This document shows, piece after piece, positions 1 through 5,069 of a stretch of 5,069 bases of DNA; position 1 is the stretch's first letter; each line of letters starts with the position of its first letter. The notes below the pieces were generated by a model. That model was not told the DNA's origin and ran no database searches. It was given only the letters and a program-made list of their open reading frames with translations. This DNA comes from a virus (Duplodnaviria > Heunggongvirae > Uroviricota > Caudoviricetes). The position numbers and the translations under genes were made by a program. The stretch lies in IMG/VR virus record IMGVR_UViG_2751185971_000010; one strand, written 5' to 3'.

Positions 1-90
1 AAGGAGATCAGTGAAGGTAATTTAAAAACGGTTCTGTGAAAGTGACACGAACCGATCTCCATCGATGTTACTCACCGATCTCCTTCACGG
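1..90. repeat. Cluster of short GATC-containing repeats: 10-bp direct repeat ACCGATCTCC (51-60 and 74-83) plus inverted partial copy AAGGAGATC (1-9)
   Basis: Read directly: ACCGATCTCC occurs twice 23 bp apart; positions 1-9 AAGGAGATC are the reverse complement of GATCTCCTT at 77-85. Three GATC (Dam) sites lie at 6-9, 54-57 and 77-80. The cluster sits at the point where lom homology is lost and is cut by the window edge. Confidence 0.4.
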
Positions 91-167
91 TAATACGCAC
101 ATGCAGGCGCACCGGATACAGCCAGACAGATGGCTGCGGACAAAATGGCTGCACAAACTTTACGCAT
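72..167 (-). pseudogene. lom: lom (Ail/PagC/Lom family outer-membrane protein) 5' remnant: signal peptide retained, then unrelated sequence and a stop after 31 codons
   Basis: Minus strand: RBS GAGAGG, 5-nt spacer, ATG at 165-167. Translation is MRKVCAAILSAAICLAVSGAPA followed by CAYYREGDR and TGA at 72-74. The first 22 residues match the lambda Lom signal peptide as I recall it (MRKLYAAILSAAICLAVSGAPA…). No other minus frame restores Lom-like sequence, so the gene is truncated or replaced from about position 101 leftwards. Position after J and its terminator is the lambda lom position. Confidence 0.55.
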
Positions 168-234: not shown

Positions 235-3200
235 TCAGCTAATCGTGATGCCTGCAGTGGCTTTCTTCATCACAACAACCAGCAAATCGCTGATACTTGC
301 TGTGGGATACCAGCCATTTACCAGCCATGCCGATACAGAAAACTCCAGCGTCATGTGACCGTGACCGGCAGGCATATCAATAACACCCGTATATATCAGC
401 GTATTATCCAGGGTCGTTCGGTTATAAATTTCAGCACCGTTTTTCTTCACTATCAGGCGGCATGACGAATAAATATTGTTATTCTTCCGCTCATGTTTAG
501 CACCGCGAAACGCCACCGCGGGAATAACAATTTGCCGATCAAACGGCTGATCGTCATAAACCCTGACGGTAATGGTCCCTGATGGCCACCTCTCCGGTGC
601 CCGGGAGTCCCGTGGGAAAGGTTTGCCCACTGTTTTAACGAGATCGCCTTCAATCTGGTTCGCGGACAATTTTCCCAGAACCCGACAGTTCTTATTAATC
701 GTGACGTTGTTGAGCGTCCCGGAGTTCGCGTTCACGTTACCGCTGATATCGGCATTTTTCGCCGTCAGCCGTCCGCCAGGTGTCAGGGAAAATGCCGGAG
801 GATTACCGCCGCTGGTTATGGTCGGAGCCGTCAGGCGTTTCAGGAACACGTCGTTCATGAATATCTGATCGCCCTGACCAACAAACATCGGCTTTGTGTT
901 GCCATTCGCAGGATTAATCATCGCAATCCTGTCTGCCGCCAGCAGCACCTGACTCTGCATTCCTGCTGGCGTATTCTCAATACCGGCACCGATACCCGCA
1001 ATATAAAGGCGTCCGTCCTTCATCTGTTGCAGCTTCACAGCCCACATGCTGTTCAGATTATTATTTGTATCAACCTGAACCTTCTGTATCTGCTGGATTG
1101 CCGCACTCTGGTCTTTCAGTTTCTTATTGACAGTCTGCGTGATTTCATTGCTGACATCCGTAATGGACGTCCTGATTTCAGCCAGGTCAGGCGCAAGCTG
1201 ACCTTTATCAATCTGCGTCCACAGCTCCTGAGCCAGATGGGTTTTCCCTATCTCGCCTTTGAAAAAATCCAGATAACCGGATGCATCATCACTCGGCTGA
1301 CCAACAGCCTCCACGAATGCCGATTTGCCAACGGTGTTCACACTGCGAACGTAAAAATAATAATCATGGCCCGGTTTGATATTGATACTGGCGGCTATCC
1401 AGTACAGCCCCGTGCCAAGATAGCGCGCTGTGGTTTCAACCTTCCTGATATCGGTAATCCGCTTTTCCGAAAACCAGAACTCAAACTGTACCGTCGGGTC
1501 ATAAACGGCAAGATGCGGCGTGGCGGTTATCTGAAAATAGCCCGGCGTCAGCTCAATCCGCGACGGCGCTGCCGGTGCGGCAATCCGGAACGATACCGAC
1601 GCCGGATCGCCCTGCTGTCCCCACGCATTTACCGCCCGGACCGTCAACATGTAACGCCCCAGCGCCAGCTGCCTGAAGCGGTATGTGGTTTCCGTCGTCC
1701 GGGCCGTGCTGACCAGCCGCTCACTGCCATCGTCCGCTGTCACGGTCAGGCGAAGCAGGAAGCTCACGCCCTTCACCACCTTCGGCGTGTCCCAGCGGGC
1801 CAGTACCTGATACTCCCCGCTGTCTGCGGTGACTTCGGCAGTCAGGTGCTGCACCGCTGGCGGCGTGACACCATTCACCGTGCCGCTCTGGTCGCCGTCA
1901 AAGTGCGCCCCGTTATCCACGATGGCTTCTTTTTCCGGTACATGCTGCACGGCGGTGATGGCATACGTGCCGTCATCGTTCTCACGGATACTCACGCAGC
2001 GGAACAGGCGCTGGCGCAGCGTCGGCAGCTTCAGCCCCCACACGCTGTATTCGGCAACGCCGTCAGGAACACGGCTCACTTTCACCTTCACGCCGTCGGT
2101 GACGGACTGGACCTCCACGCTGACCGGATTCCCCTGTCCGTCAACCAGGCTTATCAGCGTGGTGCCGGAGGATGGCAGCGTGATTTCACGGTCGAGCGTC
2201 AGTGTCCGCGTCTGGCTGTTCACCGCCAGCACGCGCCCGCCGATGCTGATACCCGCATAGTCATCATCACAGATTTCAATGACATCGCCCGGTACATGGC
2301 GAAGCCCTTCTGCACCCACGCTGAAGTCCACGGTCTGCGTTTCCAGCAGCTCCGTTTTAATCAGCCACAGCCCGGCGCGGTGTGCCTGCCCCCGGCTGGT
2401 ACAGCCAAAGGCATCCATCTTCGTGACGTTACGACCGTAACGGGCAATGGCCTGCGTATCTTCAACAAGCTCTGTCGCCGTCTCCCAGCCGTTATCCGGG
2501 TCAATCCAGTTCACCTCAACGGCATTATGGCGGTCCTTCAGGGCGCTGAAGCTGTAGCGGAACGGCGCGCCATCATCCGGCATCACCACATTACTGCGGT
2601 TATAGGTCCACACCTTATCCGACGGTCGGTCCTGCACGAACGTCAGCGTCTGCCCGTTCCATACCGGCATATAGCGCATCGCCGAACAGAAATCACTGAG
2701 CACATCCCACGCCTTACGCTGTGTGGTCAGGTAAGCGTTACAGGTGATGCGCGGCTCCGTGCCACCAAAGCCATCCGGCACTGACTGATCGCAATACTGG
2801 CCGATGACATACAGCGCCCATTTGTCCACATCCGCCGCACCAAGACGTTTCCCCATGCCGTAGCGCGGGTGGGTCAGCATATCCCACAGACACCATGCCA
2901 TGTTGTTGCTGTATGCCGGTTTAAACGTCCCGTCCCAGATACCGCTGTATTGCCGCGTCTGCGGGTTATAGTTCGATGGCACCTGCAGAATGCGCCCGCG
3001 AAGATGATAATTACGGCTCACCTGCTGGCTGCCGAACTGTTCCGAGTCCACCTGCACGCCGACCAGTGCCGTGTTCGGGTAGCACTGTTTCACATCGATG
3101 ATTTCAGTGTATGACGACCAGAGCGTTTTGTTCTGCAGCTGGTCTGTGGTGCTGTCCGGCGTCATCCTGCGCATCCGGATATTAAACGGGCGCGGCGGCA

Positions 3201-3714
3201 GGTTACCCACCACCACCGAGGCCAGATACTGCGAGGTGGTTTTGCCCTTAATGGTGATGTCTTTTTCCGTCACCCAGCCACCGTTACGTTGTATCTGAAC
3301 CAGCAGGCGGACTTCCGACGGATTCCTGTCACCCTTTGAGGTGGTTTCCACCAGTGCCTGCACACCGAAGGTAAAGCGCAGACGGTCGATGTTTGCAGAC
3401 GTGATGGTCCGGGTGATCGGCGTGTCGTATTTCACTTCCGTACCCAGCACCGTCTCGGAACCGGAGGATTCAAATCCCTCCGGCGGTGTCTGCTCCTGCT
3501 CACCTGCCCGGAACACCACCGTAACACCGGAGATGTTGGTATTCCCCTCACTGTCCAGCACCGGTGTACTGTTCAGCAGCACGCTTTTTAATCCATCCAC
3601 CGGACCTTCAATCGGCCCTTCGCTGATGGCATCGATCACACTCAGTAATTGCGTGGATTTCAGGTTGTCCTTCGCTTCGCGCGGGGTATGCCCCTTACTG
3701 CTTCCTTTACCCAT
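235..3714 (-). CDS. J: Host specificity protein J (tail tip / central tail fibre, 1159 aa) with a divergent C-terminal receptor-binding region
   Basis: Single 3480-nt minus-strand ORF with an SD-like GGAG/GAGGA before the ATG. Residues 1 to ~790 ([54 protein letters not shown]…) are near-identical to lambda gpJ as I recall it. From ~790 the sequence diverges (different coiled segment, ~27 extra residues, recognisable but substituted C-terminal domain). Lambda gpJ is 1132 aa by my recollection. Confidence 0.95.
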
Positions 3715-3726
3715 TCCTCACACTCC

Positions 3727-3756
3727 ATAAACAACAAAGCCGCCCAAAAGGCGGCT
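3727..3756 (-). terminator. Intrinsic-terminator-like hairpin between the lipoprotein gene and J
   Basis: Perfect 7-bp GC-rich stem AGCCGCC (3738-3744) / GGCGGCT (3750-3756) with a 5-nt loop. On the minus strand it is followed directly by TTGTTGTTTAT, then the J ribosome-binding site (GGAGTGTGAGGA) and ATG. The plus strand has no T-tract after the stem, so it is directional for minus-strand transcripts. Confidence 0.5.
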
Positions 3757-3780
3757 CATGAGTTACGGCAGGATTAACTA

Positions 3781-4119
3781 TTATTTACATGCATTAACAC
3801 TATCAGCAAAAATTTTTGGCGTTAATGCTGGTACACGTTCATAAAGAGTAAAACTACTGCCATTTCCTGCTTTTTTGATATCAAGCACAATATCATATCC
3901 CCCCATAGCCTGTGGAACTAAAAGGCTTACCCCATTCTCAATAGGAAGGGATGTTATAGGTGTTCCATTACCAGCCCATTGTCTGGATATGCAGCCTGAC
4001 AATTCATCAATATTTTTTAATGAATTACCTTCCATTACAGGTTTTCCGGATTTTACGTAATCCAAAGATTTACATCCTGTTAAGGCAATAATCGTGCAGA
4101 ATAAAATCGTTTTGTTCAT
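3781..4119 (-). CDS. Small predicted outer-membrane lipoprotein (112 aa precursor), a moron inserted between tail genes I and J; function unknown
   Basis: Minus-strand ORF. Using the ATG at 4117-4119, the N-terminus MNKTILFCTIIALTGC is a typical lipoprotein signal peptide: positive n-region, hydrophobic core, lipobox L-T-G-C. The +2 residue after the lipid Cys is Lys, not Asp, consistent with outer-membrane sorting. Two further Cys (SGCISRQ and NACK at the C-terminus) could form a disulfide. The gene sits in a ~420 bp block much more AT-rich than the flanking tail genes. The ORF track opens at an upstream TTG (4129-4131); I prefer the ATG. No convincing Shine-Dalgarno was seen. Confidence 0.65.
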   Translation of the reverse strand: MNKTILFCTIIALTGCKSLDYVKSGKPVMEGNSLKNIDELSGCISRQWAGNGTPITSLPIENGVSLLVPQAMGGYDIVLDIKKAGNGSSFTLYERVPALTPKIFADSVNACK

Positions 4120-4154
4120 ATAGCTAACCAATAGAATAATTATCAGTGTTCGAT

Positions 4155-4190
4155 ATAAATATTAAATCAGTTAGAACATGAGTAAATAAT
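4155..4190 (-). promoter_or_regulatory. Putative sigma70-type promoter for the inserted lipoprotein gene (weak match)
   Basis: AT-rich sequence just downstream of the I stop on the minus strand. Candidate -35 TTTACT (plus coords 4181-4186), 16-nt spacer, candidate -10 TAATAT (4159-4164), about 40 nt upstream of the lipoprotein ATG. Hexamers match consensus only 4/6 each; a guess by eye. Confidence 0.2.
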
Positions 4191-4191
4191 A

Positions 4192-4833
4192 TTACCGCCC
4201 AATTACCACAACCTGACCACCATCCCCTTCATCTGCCGTGCTGATCTCCTGAGATGCCACACGTGACCCCACGCGCATTTCACCGTACAGAACAGGCAGG
4301 ACATTGCCCTGGGCAACCATGTTATCCAGTGAGGAGAAACAGGTGTTCTGTTTGCCGTTATCCGTTGTCTGTGTACGGGGAGTTCTGGCTTTCGGTGCCA
4401 GCATCTGTGCAACACCGCCAAGCGTCATACTGGCACCGAGAGAAAACAGCAGATTACTCGCCATAATTCCTACCCCCGGCATCCATATAGCAACCGCCAT
4501 AACAGCTGCCCCCAGCACCGCCTGAAACACACCGCCACTTTTAGCTCCCACCAGACGCGGTACGATGTGGATCACGGCACCATTTGCCAGCGGCTCATTA
4601 AGACGGGCAGATAATTCGTTTTCGCCTGCATCACGCCCGGCAATGCGCACCTGATACCAGCCCTCATTCAGTTTCTGGCGAAACGCCGGGAGCTGTGTGG
4701 CCAGCGCCCGGATGGCTTCGGCCCCCGTTTTCACACGAAGGTCGATGCGGCGACCAAATCGTTGTAAATCCCCGTAAAGGCAGATGCGTGCCATGCCTGG
4801 TGACGCCAGAGGGAGTGTGTGCGTCGCTGCCAT
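4192..4833 (-). CDS. I: Tail assembly protein I (213 aa)
   Basis: Complete minus-strand ORF. The N-terminal ~55 residues (MAATHTLPLASPGMARICLYGDLQRFGRRIDLRVKTGAEAIRALATQLPAFRQKL…) and the C-terminal ~60 residues (…APKARTPRTQTTDNGKQNT.FSSLDNMVAQGNVLPVLYGEMRVGSRVASQEISTADEGDGGQVVVIGR) match lambda gpI as I recall it; the central hydrophobic segment differs. Position between K and J fits lambda gene order. Confidence 0.9.
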   Translation of the reverse strand: MAATHTLPLASPGMARICLYGDLQRFGRRIDLRVKTGAEAIRALATQLPAFRQKLNEGWYQVRIAGRDAGENELSARLNEPLANGAVIHIVPRLVGAKSGGVFQAVLGAAVMAVAIWMPGVGIMASNLLFSLGASMTLGGVAQMLAPKARTPRTQTTDNGKQNTCFSSLDNMVAQGNVLPVLYGEMRVGSRVASQEISTADEGDGGQVVVIGR

Positions 4834-5069
4834 TTGTCGGTGTACCTCTCTCGTTTGCTCAGTTGTTCAGGAATATGGTGCAGCAGCTCGCCGTCACCAC
4901 AGTAAATGGCGGCATGATTCGGCACCGATGAACCAAAACAGCACAGCAGCACATCGCCCGGCTGCGCCGCTGACAACGGCACCTGATACAGCCCTGTGGC
5001 CTCCAGATTATCCAGATAGAGATTCTGACCGTGACGCCACCAGTCATCCCCGCGATGAAAATCCGGCAT
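4731..5069 (-). CDS. K: Tail assembly protein K, C-terminal 112 codons only (NlpC/P60-like portion); 5' end lies beyond the window edge
   Basis: Minus-strand ORF open to the window edge. Translation (…PDFHRGDDWWRHGQNLYLDNLEATGLYQVPLSAAQPGDVLLCCFGSSVPNHAAIYCGDGELLHHIPEQLSKRERYTDKWQRRTH…) matches my recollection of the lambda gpK C-terminus almost residue for residue. It ends 103 bp inside the start of I in another frame, the same overlap I recall for lambda K/I. The Met at 5067-5069 is an artefact of the window edge, not the true start. Confidence 0.88.
   Translation of the reverse strand: MPDFHRGDDWWRHGQNLYLDNLEATGLYQVPLSAAQPGDVLLCCFGSSVPNHAAIYCGDGELLHHIPEQLSKRERYTDKWQRRTHSLWRHQAWHASAFTGIYNDLVAASTFV

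What the first reader, a model, noticed from the sequence alone, without database searches (positions are those of the whole stretch)
3781..4119. Small outer-membrane lipoprotein next to the receptor-binding gene: candidate superinfection-exclusion or lysogenic-conversion factor
The ORF encodes a ~96-residue mature lipoprotein (lipobox LTGC, Lys at +2, two further Cys) that I do not recognise as any characterised tail component. Established precedents pair small lipoproteins with phage receptor recognition: Cor of phi80/N15 and Llp of T5 both inactivate the receptor FhuA, and T5 llp lies beside the receptor-binding gene. By analogy, this protein could block the receptor used by the adjacent variant J, or act as a surface or virulence moron like Lom and Bor. 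The analogy is by gene context and protein class only; there is no sequence similarity I can assert.
Basis: inference. Interest (0 to 1): 0.7.

Follow-up and report, generated by a model that had tools for sequence, protein, structure and literature searches.

The report
Uncharacterised prophage moron lipoprotein (PHROG 914)
A real, well-conserved small lipoprotein gene sits on a foreign AT-rich cassette between tail genes I and J of a lambda-like prophage; its family is widespread and unstudied, and it is probably a prophage accessory factor, but it is unrelated to the known receptor-blocking lipoproteins and does not track the receptor-binding end of J.

Summary
Window 3781-4119 (- strand) encodes a 112-aa prolipoprotein with lipobox LTGC, Lys at +2 and two further conserved Cys. 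It lies on a ~430-bp cassette of 34% GC inserted between lambda-like tail genes I and J (56-57% GC). Phage lambda and many E. coli prophages have this site empty.

The protein belongs to PHROG 914, a family of unknown function. The family has about 110 clusters at 50% identity, nearly all ~112-aa lipoproteins with three invariant Cys. A confident model (pLDDT 90) shows a small TBP-like alpha/beta domain with no informative structural match.

The Cor/Llp analogy is not supported. Cor, T5 Llp, the mEp Lpp exclusion lipoproteins and Bor match only in the signal peptide. The gene flanks the conserved 5' end of J, 3.3 kb from the receptor-binding end. Identical lipoprotein alleles sit upstream of J proteins with at least four different receptor-binding ends. 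Relatives occupy other slots: between K and I, between the tail chaperone and tape-measure genes, next to a repressor and a Septu system, and on the opposite strand within head or early genes.

Best reading: a moron-encoded, outer-membrane-anchored periplasmic accessory protein. It most likely acts in envelope-level phage exclusion that is not matched to the adjacent J. The function is untested. Interest is moderate.

The parts
3781..4119 (-). Lipoprotein CDS (112 aa, stop codon included), a member of PHROG 914
   Evidence: ORF list and sequence. phrog_914 match at E 2.5e-32 over the full length. Same gene annotated as WP_001332187.1 'hypothetical protein' in RefSeq. AF2 model with pLDDT 90.4.
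4075..4119 (-). Signal peptide, residues 1-15 (MNKTILFCTIIALTG). The lipobox L-T-G-C is encoded at 4072-4083 and the lipidated Cys16 at 4072-4074.
   Evidence: Read directly from the sequence. The lipobox Cys is invariant in 95 homologues.
3787..3993 (-). Mature-domain core running from the Cys43 codon (3991-3993) to the Cys111 codon (3787-3789). The two Cys are a presumed disulfide pair linking helix 1 and the C-terminal helix.
   Evidence: C43 and C111 are invariant in 95 sequences. In the model, C43 lies in helix 37-49 and C111 at the end of helix 103-111. The disulfide itself is an inference.
3760..4191 (-). AT-rich moron cassette (about 430 bp, 34% GC) inserted between the stop codon of I and the I-J hairpin
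   Evidence: Composition. Alignment with empty sites in lambda and E. coli 675SK2. Present in 337 of 5426 complete E. coli genomes.
4159..4186 (-). Best sigma-70-like promoter candidate inside the cassette: TTTACT, 16-nt spacer, TAATAT (8 of 12 matches). Weak and unproven.
   Evidence: Own scan. The tool's stricter scan found no - strand promoter here.
3737..3757 (-). GC-rich hairpin followed by a U-rich tract (terminator-like) between the lipoprotein gene and J
   Evidence: dG -20.5 kcal/mol, z -3.4. An equivalent hairpin exists at empty I-J sites, so it is not specific to the cassette.
235..3714 (-). Tail tip / host-specificity protein J (1159 aa). The receptor-binding C-terminal ~150 aa are encoded at about 235-690.
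   Evidence: Pfam domains including Ig_GpJ_C. 83% identical to lambda J overall, 40% over the last 150 aa.
4192..4833 (-). Tail assembly protein I
   Evidence: Pfam Lambda_tail_I at E 2.4e-23.
4731..5069 (-). C-terminal part of tail protein K (NlpC/P60), which runs off the window
   Evidence: Pfam NLPC_P60 and the RefSeq context.

Best explanation
**Shown**
- The ORF is a functional gene carried on a horizontally acquired moron cassette in the tail operon of a lambda-like prophage.
- Its sequence carries a lipoprotein signal peptide with a canonical lipobox, Lys at +2 and two further invariant Cys.
- It is modelled as a compact TBP-like alpha/beta domain of about 85 residues.
- It belongs to PHROG 914.
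- It is independent of the J receptor-binding type.
- Relatives sit in accessory-gene slots.

**Inferred (processing and localisation)**
- The product is exported by Sec, lipidated and cleaved at Cys16. Because +2 is Lys rather than Asp, the Lol pathway sorts it to the inner leaflet of the outer membrane.
- A Cys43-Cys111 disulfide staples the domain, which hangs in the periplasm on a tether of about 10 residues.

**Inferred (function)**
- It is a prophage accessory protein whose most probable job is envelope-level exclusion of incoming phages.
- It would act at a step not matched to the receptor-binding domain of the adjacent J. One option is a post-adsorption block of tail-tip opening or DNA-conduit formation in the periplasm. 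Another is action on a conserved envelope component.
For: **Real, constrained gene**
- Three Cys are invariant across 95 homologues.
- 60 of 63 alleles are intact, with mostly synonymous variation.
- The AF2 model is confident (pLDDT 90.4, pTM 0.81).

**Moron features**
- The cassette is 34% GC against 56-57% in the flanks.
- The empty site is precisely defined in lambda and in strain 675SK2.
- It is present in only 337 of 5426 E. coli genomes, while the same J occurs in about 2600.

**Envelope localisation**
- The lipobox is canonical, and none of the family members listed has Asp at +2.

**Accessory or defence-type contexts of relatives**
- K-I gap in phiKO2, where GenBank calls it a 'putative moron', and in Fraca, Yersinia and Kluyvera prophages.
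- The slot between the tail chaperone and tape-measure genes. This is the slot of the HK97 gp15 exclusion moron (PMC3594210).
- Opposite strand within head genes or early genes.
- Between an XRE-type regulator and a Septu PtuA/PtuB pair.

**Not matched to the J receptor-binding type**
- Identical alleles occur with four or more J C-terminal types.

**Precedent**
- Small phage lipoproteins in tail regions do exclude phages: the mEp Lpp010 and Lpp021 proteins were tested experimentally (PMC11893012).
Against: - No experiment exists for any member of the family.
- PADLOC has no model for it.
- No convincing own promoter was found. In tail-operon contexts the gene is co-oriented with the late genes, sometimes only about 30 nt after K. 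Expression might therefore be late-lytic rather than lysogenic.
- The fold matches are generic and give no mechanistic clue.
- The defence neighbourhood was seen in a single locus.
- The conserved residues may be purely structural, so no binding partner can be named.
Confidence: 0.4

Rival explanations
1. Cor/Llp-type receptor blocker. The lipoprotein binds and inactivates the outer-membrane receptor used by the adjacent J. This would exclude homologous phages and protect progeny from adsorbing to cell debris.
For: - It is the right protein class, in the tail-tip gene cluster.
- There are experimental precedents for receptor-matched lipoproteins near J or the receptor-binding gene: Lpp010/LamB and Lpp021/OmpA (PMC11893012), and Cor and Llp (PMC11990801).
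- 14 of 25 complete loci do carry the window's J type.
Against: - There is no homology to Cor, Llp, Lpp010 or Lpp021 beyond the signal peptide, and no fold match to Llp among the listed best hits.
- Identical alleles lie next to J C-termini that are only 25-65% identical to each other. One of these is a Fraca/HK97-like end.
- The same receptor-binding end occurs without the cassette.
- The gene is 3.3 kb from the receptor-binding end, across a 98%-conserved stretch prone to recombination.
- Fraca carries both a family member and cor.
- Family members also occur outside tail operons.
Confidence: 0.12
2. Host-fitness or virulence conversion factor (a Bor/Lom-like moron). The lipoprotein alters envelope properties such as serum or stress resistance or adhesion, and has no role in phage exclusion.
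For: - The cassette has moron architecture and is carried by pathogens: O104:H4 C227-11, NMEC IHE3034 and CE10, APEC, and Shigella.
- lom lies just downstream of J in the same prophages.
- The closest solved fold is Flpp3, a lipoprotein of Francisella.
Against: - The family is spread over environmental and commensal Proteobacteria and their phages, not just pathogens.
- It is repeatedly linked to tail-tip genes, and once to a Septu system.
Confidence: 0.25
3. Late-lytic helper. The gene is transcribed only with the late operon and acts during lytic growth, for example by modifying the envelope before lysis or limiting loss of progeny, rather than in the lysogen.
For: - It is co-oriented with the tail genes in every tail-operon context.
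- Some relatives start only about 30 nt after K.
- No strong promoter was found.
Against: - Distant members lie on the opposite strand to the lytic genes or beside a repressor, which implies independent expression.
- The cassette is dispensable in most prophages with the same tail genes.
Confidence: 0.1
4. Structural or assembly component of the tail tip.
For: Only its position between I and J.
Against: - A lipoprotein signal peptide exports the protein from the cytoplasm, where tails are assembled.
- It is absent from lambda and from most prophages with the same K, I and J.
- It matches no structural family.
Confidence: 0.01

Closest known systems
phiKO2 gp19 and other PHROG 914 members (Fraca and LMessi K-I gap ORF, Serratia phage OS31, Yersinia/Kluyvera/Hafnia/Serratia prophage genes)
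   Same: - True homologues: hhalign probability 99.3% for the Fraca protein, and phrog_914 E-values of 1e-11 to 1e-25.
- Same length, lipobox and three Cys.
- Located in the tail-tip gene cluster.
- phiKO2 gp19 is annotated in GenBank as a 'putative moron gene product' followed by a putative terminator.
   Different: Those genes lie between K and I; the E. coli/Shigella allele lies between I and J. Identity is 30-61%. None has a known function.
Cor (phi80, N15, HK022, T1; PHROG 1119) and T5 Llp
   Same: Small phage-encoded outer-membrane lipoproteins encoded in the tail or host-range region. They are the established mechanism for receptor inactivation (FhuA).
   Different: - No similarity beyond the signal peptide.
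- Different size: mature Cor is about 60 aa, against 97 aa here. Llp is absent from the listed fold matches.
- Those genes lie just downstream of the receptor-binding gene, as seen for cor and for the mEp lipoproteins. That they co-vary with it is from general knowledge, not tested here. This gene lies upstream of J and does not co-vary with the receptor-binding end.
mEpimmI Lpp010 and Lpp021 exclusion lipoproteins (PMC11893012)
   Same: Lipoproteins in the structural gene cluster of temperate coliphages with lambda-like K, I and J. Shown experimentally to exclude cognate phages that use LamB or OmpA.
   Different: They are 72-82 aa, unrelated in the mature part, and encoded immediately downstream of J, one of them on the opposite strand.
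HK97 gp15 moron (superinfection exclusion; PMC3594210)
   Same: - A moron inserted in a lambdoid tail operon.
- It excludes phages without blocking receptors, and its effect depends on the incoming tail.
- Some PHROG 914 members occupy the same slot between the tail chaperone and tape-measure genes.
   Different: gp15 is a small YebO-like inner-membrane protein, not a lipoprotein, and there is no homology.
Bor/Iss and Lom (lambda lysogenic-conversion morons)
   Same: Prophage-borne outer-membrane proteins expressed from morons near the tail genes. Bor is a 97-aa lipoprotein.
   Different: There is no homology to Bor beyond the signal peptide. Lom is a beta-barrel.
Flpp3/DUF3568, DUF302 and the BamC N-terminal domain (TBP-like or helix-grip small alpha/beta domains)
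   Different: Identity is 6-12%, and Foldseek E is 0.014 at best with TM about 0.48. This is fold-level resemblance only. No functional inference is justified.

Membership tests
PHROG 914 (phage lipoprotein family of unknown function) | Full-length match to the family profile | tested here: met
   phrog_914 E 2.5e-32, residues 1-112 against profile positions 1-118. Homologues from five other contexts hit the same PHROG.
PHROG 914 (phage lipoprotein family of unknown function) | About 112 aa, lipobox Cys near residue 16, a second Cys about 27 residues later and a penultimate Cys | tested here: met
   C16, C43 and C111 are invariant in 95 sequences.
Bacterial lipoprotein (Lgt/Lsp substrate, Lol-sorted to the outer membrane) | Positive n-region, hydrophobic core and lipobox [LVI][ASTVI][GAS]C | tested here: met
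   MNK-TILFCTIIA-LTGC.
Bacterial lipoprotein (Lgt/Lsp substrate, Lol-sorted to the outer membrane) | Residue +2 is not Asp (the outer-membrane sorting rule); actual lipidation and localisation | not testable with these tools
   +2 is Lys, and none of the family members listed has Asp at +2. Globomycin sensitivity and fractionation are needed.
Moron (Juhala/Hendrix definition, as summarised in PMC3594210) | Extra DNA absent from closely related phages, with deviant base composition | tested here: met
   Empty site in lambda and 675SK2. 34% GC against 56-57%.
Moron (Juhala/Hendrix definition, as summarised in PMC3594210) | Own promoter and terminator | tested here: inconclusive
   Only weak promoter candidates at 8 of 12 matches. 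A hairpin terminator is present, but an equivalent hairpin exists at empty sites.
Moron (Juhala/Hendrix definition, as summarised in PMC3594210) | Expression from the repressed prophage | not testable with these tools
   No transcript data were available.
Cor superinfection-exclusion family | Sequence similarity of the mature protein | tested here: not met
   hhalign aligns only residues 1-32, the signal peptide and linker. PHROG 1119 (Cor) is not hit by the window protein.
Cor superinfection-exclusion family | Gene downstream of the J or tail-fibre host-range genes | tested here: not met
   The gene lies upstream of J. Fraca has a separate cor downstream of J.
Cor superinfection-exclusion family | Inactivation of the FhuA receptor | not testable with these tools
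   Requires plating and adsorption assays.
T5 Llp (lytic conversion lipoprotein) | Sequence or fold similarity to Llp (PDB 8a60_B) | tested here: not met
Receptor-matched exclusion lipoproteins in general (Cor, Llp, mEp Lpp) | Co-variation or tight linkage of the lipoprotein with the receptor-binding domain | tested here: not met
   Identical alleles occur with four or more J C-terminal types (14, 7, 2 and 1 loci, plus one truncated J). An identical receptor-binding end occurs without the cassette.
mEpimmI Lpp type A / type C | Sequence similarity of the mature protein | tested here: not met
   Only the signal peptide aligns.
Bor/Iss | Sequence similarity | tested here: not met
   Only the signal peptide aligns.
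Known anti-phage defence systems (PADLOC) | Match to any PADLOC model | tested here: not met
   0 families at E <= 1.

The most novel reading that the evidence does not exclude
PHROG 914 lipoproteins could be a new class of Gram-negative superinfection-exclusion protein that acts after adsorption. Anchored under the outer membrane, the protein would bind conserved internal tail-tip components of incoming siphophages as they emerge into the periplasm. Candidates are the gpI C-terminus, the tape-measure protein and the J N-terminal hub. This would stop formation of the DNA conduit. It would be a functional analogue of Ltp from Streptococcus phage TP-J34 and of HK97 gp15. It would also explain why the gene travels with K, I, the 5' end of J or the tape-measure gene rather than with the receptor-binding end.
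Probability: 0.12. Interest if true: 0.7.

Novelty: new member of a known kind. Interest (0 to 1): 0.4.

Why it matters
The cassette is carried by about 6% of complete E. coli genomes. Carriers include the O104:H4 outbreak strain, neonatal-meningitis strains IHE3034 and CE10, and Shigella. Its family is among the larger PHROGs, yet it has no assigned function.

If it proves to be an exclusion factor, it would add a structurally new family to the short list of Gram-negative envelope-level exclusion proteins. It would also be one whose specificity is not set by the receptor, which matters for predicting prophage-mediated resistance to therapeutic phages. If it is instead a host-fitness factor, it is a widespread conversion gene in pathogens.

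Either way the hypothesis is cheap to test: one 339-bp gene and plating assays.

Tried and rejected
- **Known families.** Pfam, NCBIfam and PADLOC scans of the protein found nothing useful. The only hit was a weak VirB7 signal-peptide match. A Pfam scan of 95 family members gave only LPAM_1 and weak DUF6491 hits.
- **Solved structures by sequence.** Neither the single protein nor the family profile gave a significant match. The TopBP1 BRCT hit at E 0.11 was judged to be chance.
- **First structure model.** The 4-sequence alignment gave a poor model (pLDDT 63). It was replaced by the 95-sequence model.
- **Fold searches.** Only generic TBP-like or helix-grip neighbours were found. The afdb50 library was unavailable.
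- **Related-locus scans.** Scans with broad alignments failed for lack of a conserved 7-10-residue stretch. Single-protein scans with P0017 and P0043 found nothing in IMG/VR.
- **Small RNA in the cassette.** Rfam found nothing.
- **Spurious hit.** The 1047-aa hit P0039 from the exhaustive search is an Ig_7 repeat protein.
- **Literature.** Searches for the accession, the PHROG number and related terms found no study of this family. The svsR small-RNA paper is unrelated, because that RNA lies in cI. The Casjens 2004 phiKO2 paper is not held.
- **O-spanin idea.** Rejected on my own judgement: wrong locus, no partner i-spanin, and a structured alpha/beta domain.

Full report
**1. What is in the window.**
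- On the - strand the window carries the distal part of a lambda-like tail operon.
- In order, the genes are the C-terminal part of K (NlpC/P60, 4731-5069), I (4192-4833, Pfam Lambda_tail_I), the ORF in question (3781-4119) and J (235-3714, 1159 aa, with all the lambda J domains).
- Downstream of J only about 22-24 codons of lom remain (start codon at 167). Window 1-100 is the end of an IS21-family element, ISEc12.
- In RefSeq genomes the same arrangement sits in a complete lambdoid prophage, and the ORF is annotated 'hypothetical protein' WP_001332187.1.
- The exact window protein is named 'hypothetical protein [Shigella dysenteriae]' in public sources.

**2.
- The ORF encodes MNKTILFCTIIALTGC|KSLDY... 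(112 aa). It has a canonical lipoprotein signal peptide, the lipobox LTGC, Lys at +2, and Cys43 and Cys111 in a 97-residue mature part.
- It is a real gene rather than a chance ORF. An exhaustive profile search found 112 representatives at 50% identity. Nearly all are 105-125-aa proteins with a lipobox Cys at about residue 16, a second Cys about 27 residues later and a penultimate Cys.
- In a 95-sequence alignment only these three Cys are invariant. P27, K35, W48, G63 and D80 are well conserved.
- Among 63 E. coli/Shigella copies, 60 are intact and 3 are frameshifted. Ten polymorphic codons are synonymous-only against six with an amino-acid change.

**3. It sits on a moron-like cassette.**
- The segment at about 3760-4191 is 34% GC, against 56-57% for I and J.
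- Phage lambda and E. coli 675SK2 have the empty site: the stop codon of I, about 15 nt, a GC-rich hairpin, then the start of J.
- The cassette alone occurs in 337 of 5426 complete E. coli genomes at 95% identity or more. DNA similar to at least 80% of the window, mostly without the cassette, occurs in 2629 genomes.
- The hairpin after the ORF (3737-3757, dG -20.5 kcal/mol, z -3.4) has a counterpart at empty sites, so it is not cassette-specific.
- Upstream there are only weak sigma-70-like candidates, the best being TTTACT-16-TAATAT at 4186-4159. Independent expression is therefore plausible but not shown.
- Rfam finds no RNA family in the cassette.

**4. Family and fold.**
- The protein matches PHROG 914 (unknown function) at E 2.5e-32 over its full length. 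It matches nothing in Pfam, NCBIfam or PADLOC.
- All homologues tested from other contexts also fall in PHROG 914.
- Sources call the proteins 'hypothetical protein', 'phage protein' or 'lipoprotein'. Hosts include Escherichia/Shigella, Yersinia, Hafnia, Serratia, Shimwellia, Kluyvera, Klebsiella (phage phiKO2) and Achromobacter/Alcaligenaceae. A Pseudomonas phage protein is the best structural match in the viral structure library BFVD.
- With the 95-sequence alignment AlphaFold2 gives a confident model (pLDDT 90.4, pTM 0.81). It has a short N-terminal tether followed by a beta-alpha-beta4-alpha domain.
- No functional inference follows from these matches.
- From established rules, a Lys at +2 predicts Lol-dependent sorting to the inner leaflet of the outer membrane. 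The invariant Cys43/Cys111 pair predicts a periplasmic disulfide. Both are inferences.

**5. Test of the Cor/Llp analogy.**
- *Sequence.* The family profile aligns with four proteins only over the signal peptide and lipobox. They are Cor (from phage Fraca), Bor, and the experimentally validated exclusion lipoproteins Lpp010 (mEp010 gp116) and Lpp021 (mEp021 gp81). As a positive control, the Fraca K-I gap lipoprotein aligns end to end at 99.3% probability. T5 Llp (8a60_B) matches only residues 1-20 at E 0.62, and it is absent from the listed fold hits.
- *Position.* Cor, Lpp010 and Lpp021 lie just downstream of J (PMC11893012). This gene lies upstream of the 5' end of J. That end is 98% identical to lambda over 800 aa, and the divergent receptor-binding end is 3.3 kb away.
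- *Co-variation.* I examined 25 loci with a complete J downstream of the E. coli/Shigella allele. Fourteen carry the window's C-terminal type. Seven carry a CE10 type (48% identical over the last 150 aa). Two carry a Fraca/HK97-like end (25%). One carries a fourth type (65%), and one is truncated.
- The same lipoprotein allele occurs in three of these types. One RefSeq protein, WP_001332187.1, is annotated in both IHE3034 and CE10, whose J ends are 49% identical.
- Conversely, strain 675SK2 lacks the cassette, yet its last 150 J residues are identical to those of the cassette-carrying strain C227-11 and 95% identical to the window's.
- The lipoprotein is therefore not matched to the receptor-binding domain of its neighbour.

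**6. Where relatives sit.**
- The E. coli/Shigella allele is always I-lipoprotein-J (58 IMG/VR loci).
- Relatives at 38-61% identity lie between K and I. These are from metagenomic contigs, Kluyvera and IMG/VR loci, and a Yersinia-type locus behind a 4-kb accessory island. Another lies in a cluster of accessory genes between K and I.
- Isolated phages Fraca, LMessi, phiKO2 and OS31 carry a 30-49% relative. In the three whose context was read (Fraca, LMessi, phiKO2) it lies in the K-I gap. GenBank calls phiKO2 gp19 a 'putative moron gene product' with a putative terminator after it.
[quoted passage not shown] This is the slot of the HK97 gp15 exclusion moron (PMC3594210).
- More distant members occupy other accessory slots:
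  - on the opposite strand within head genes;
  - on the opposite strand in an early/replication region;
  - in an integrative island;
  - between an XRE-type regulator and a Septu PtuA/PtuB pair, with PtuA at E 5e-166 and PtuB at E 5e-72.
- This is the behaviour of a mobile accessory gene, with a marked preference in siphophages for the tail-tip and tape-measure region.

**7. Interpretation.**
- *Shown.* The gene is real and constrained. It encodes a protein with a canonical lipoprotein signal sequence, lies on a foreign cassette, and belongs to a large uncharacterised phage family. It is unrelated to the known exclusion lipoproteins and independent of the J receptor-binding type.
- *Inferred.* It is anchored in the outer membrane with a disulfide-stapled periplasmic domain. 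It is an accessory function that benefits the lysogen.
- I judge envelope-level phage exclusion, not matched to the adjacent J, to be the most probable role (about 0.4). The grounds are precedents for tail-operon morons and lipoproteins, the accessory or defence contexts of relatives, and the linkage to conserved tail-tip genes rather than to the receptor-binding end.
- The rivals are a host-fitness conversion factor (0.25), a receptor-specific Cor/Llp-like blocker (0.12), a late-lytic helper (0.1) and a structural tail protein (about 0.01). The remaining probability covers other or no function.
- The weak promoter evidence and co-orientation with the late genes are the main uncertainties.

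**8. Novelty and score.**
- The kind of element is well known: a moron-encoded envelope lipoprotein in a lambdoid tail operon. One family member was flagged as a putative moron in the GenBank record of phiKO2.
- No function, structure or study exists for the family.
- I rate it a new member of a known kind, with interest 0.4. The most novel reading still open is a periplasmic, post-adsorption exclusion mechanism aimed at conserved tail-tip internals (probability about 0.12).

Noticed in passing
window 1-167: Window 1-100 matches the end of the IS21-family element ISEc12. The lom gene downstream of J keeps only its first ~22-24 codons (start at 167, - strand) before the IS, so lom is disrupted in this prophage.
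   Followed up: partly
window 3737-3757, compared with L004 and L005 (lambda): The GC-rich hairpin between I and J is conserved at both occupied and empty sites, with compensatory stem changes: GAGCCGCC...GGCGGCTT here against AAACCGCC...GGCGGTTT in lambda. Its role inside the late operon is unexplained.
   Followed up: partly
L011 8600-10494: A distant family member (P0116) lies between an XRE-type HTH gene and a complete Septu pair (PtuA E 5e-166, PtuB E 5e-72), with an ADP-ribosylglycohydrolase gene nearby.
   Followed up: partly
L002 5725-5994 (phage Fraca); L087 4515-4898 and 5406-5855: The K-I gap often holds further small accessory ORFs beside the lipoprotein. Examples are a phrog_2320 protein in Fraca, an XRE-type HTH protein and a 149-aa ORF in L087, and a ~4-kb island with KilAC/Bro-like genes in L097.
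   Followed up: no
L084, L085, L086; proteins P0006, P0008, P0009: Some E. coli copies of the lipoprotein gene are frameshifted or truncated (3 of 63 loci). The gene therefore decays in some prophages.
   Followed up: partly
L053 and one other IMG/VR locus: Two prophages combine a lambda-like J N-terminus (96% identical over 800 aa) with a Fraca/HK97-like C-terminal end (...NVIRVRMGRLF). This illustrates recombination within J downstream of the cassette.
   Followed up: no
L098 8041 onward (phage phiKO2): The J-like gene of phiKO2 is about 10.3 kb (15332-25633 in the record), three times the length of lambda J. It lies downstream of a PHROG 914 member.
   Followed up: no
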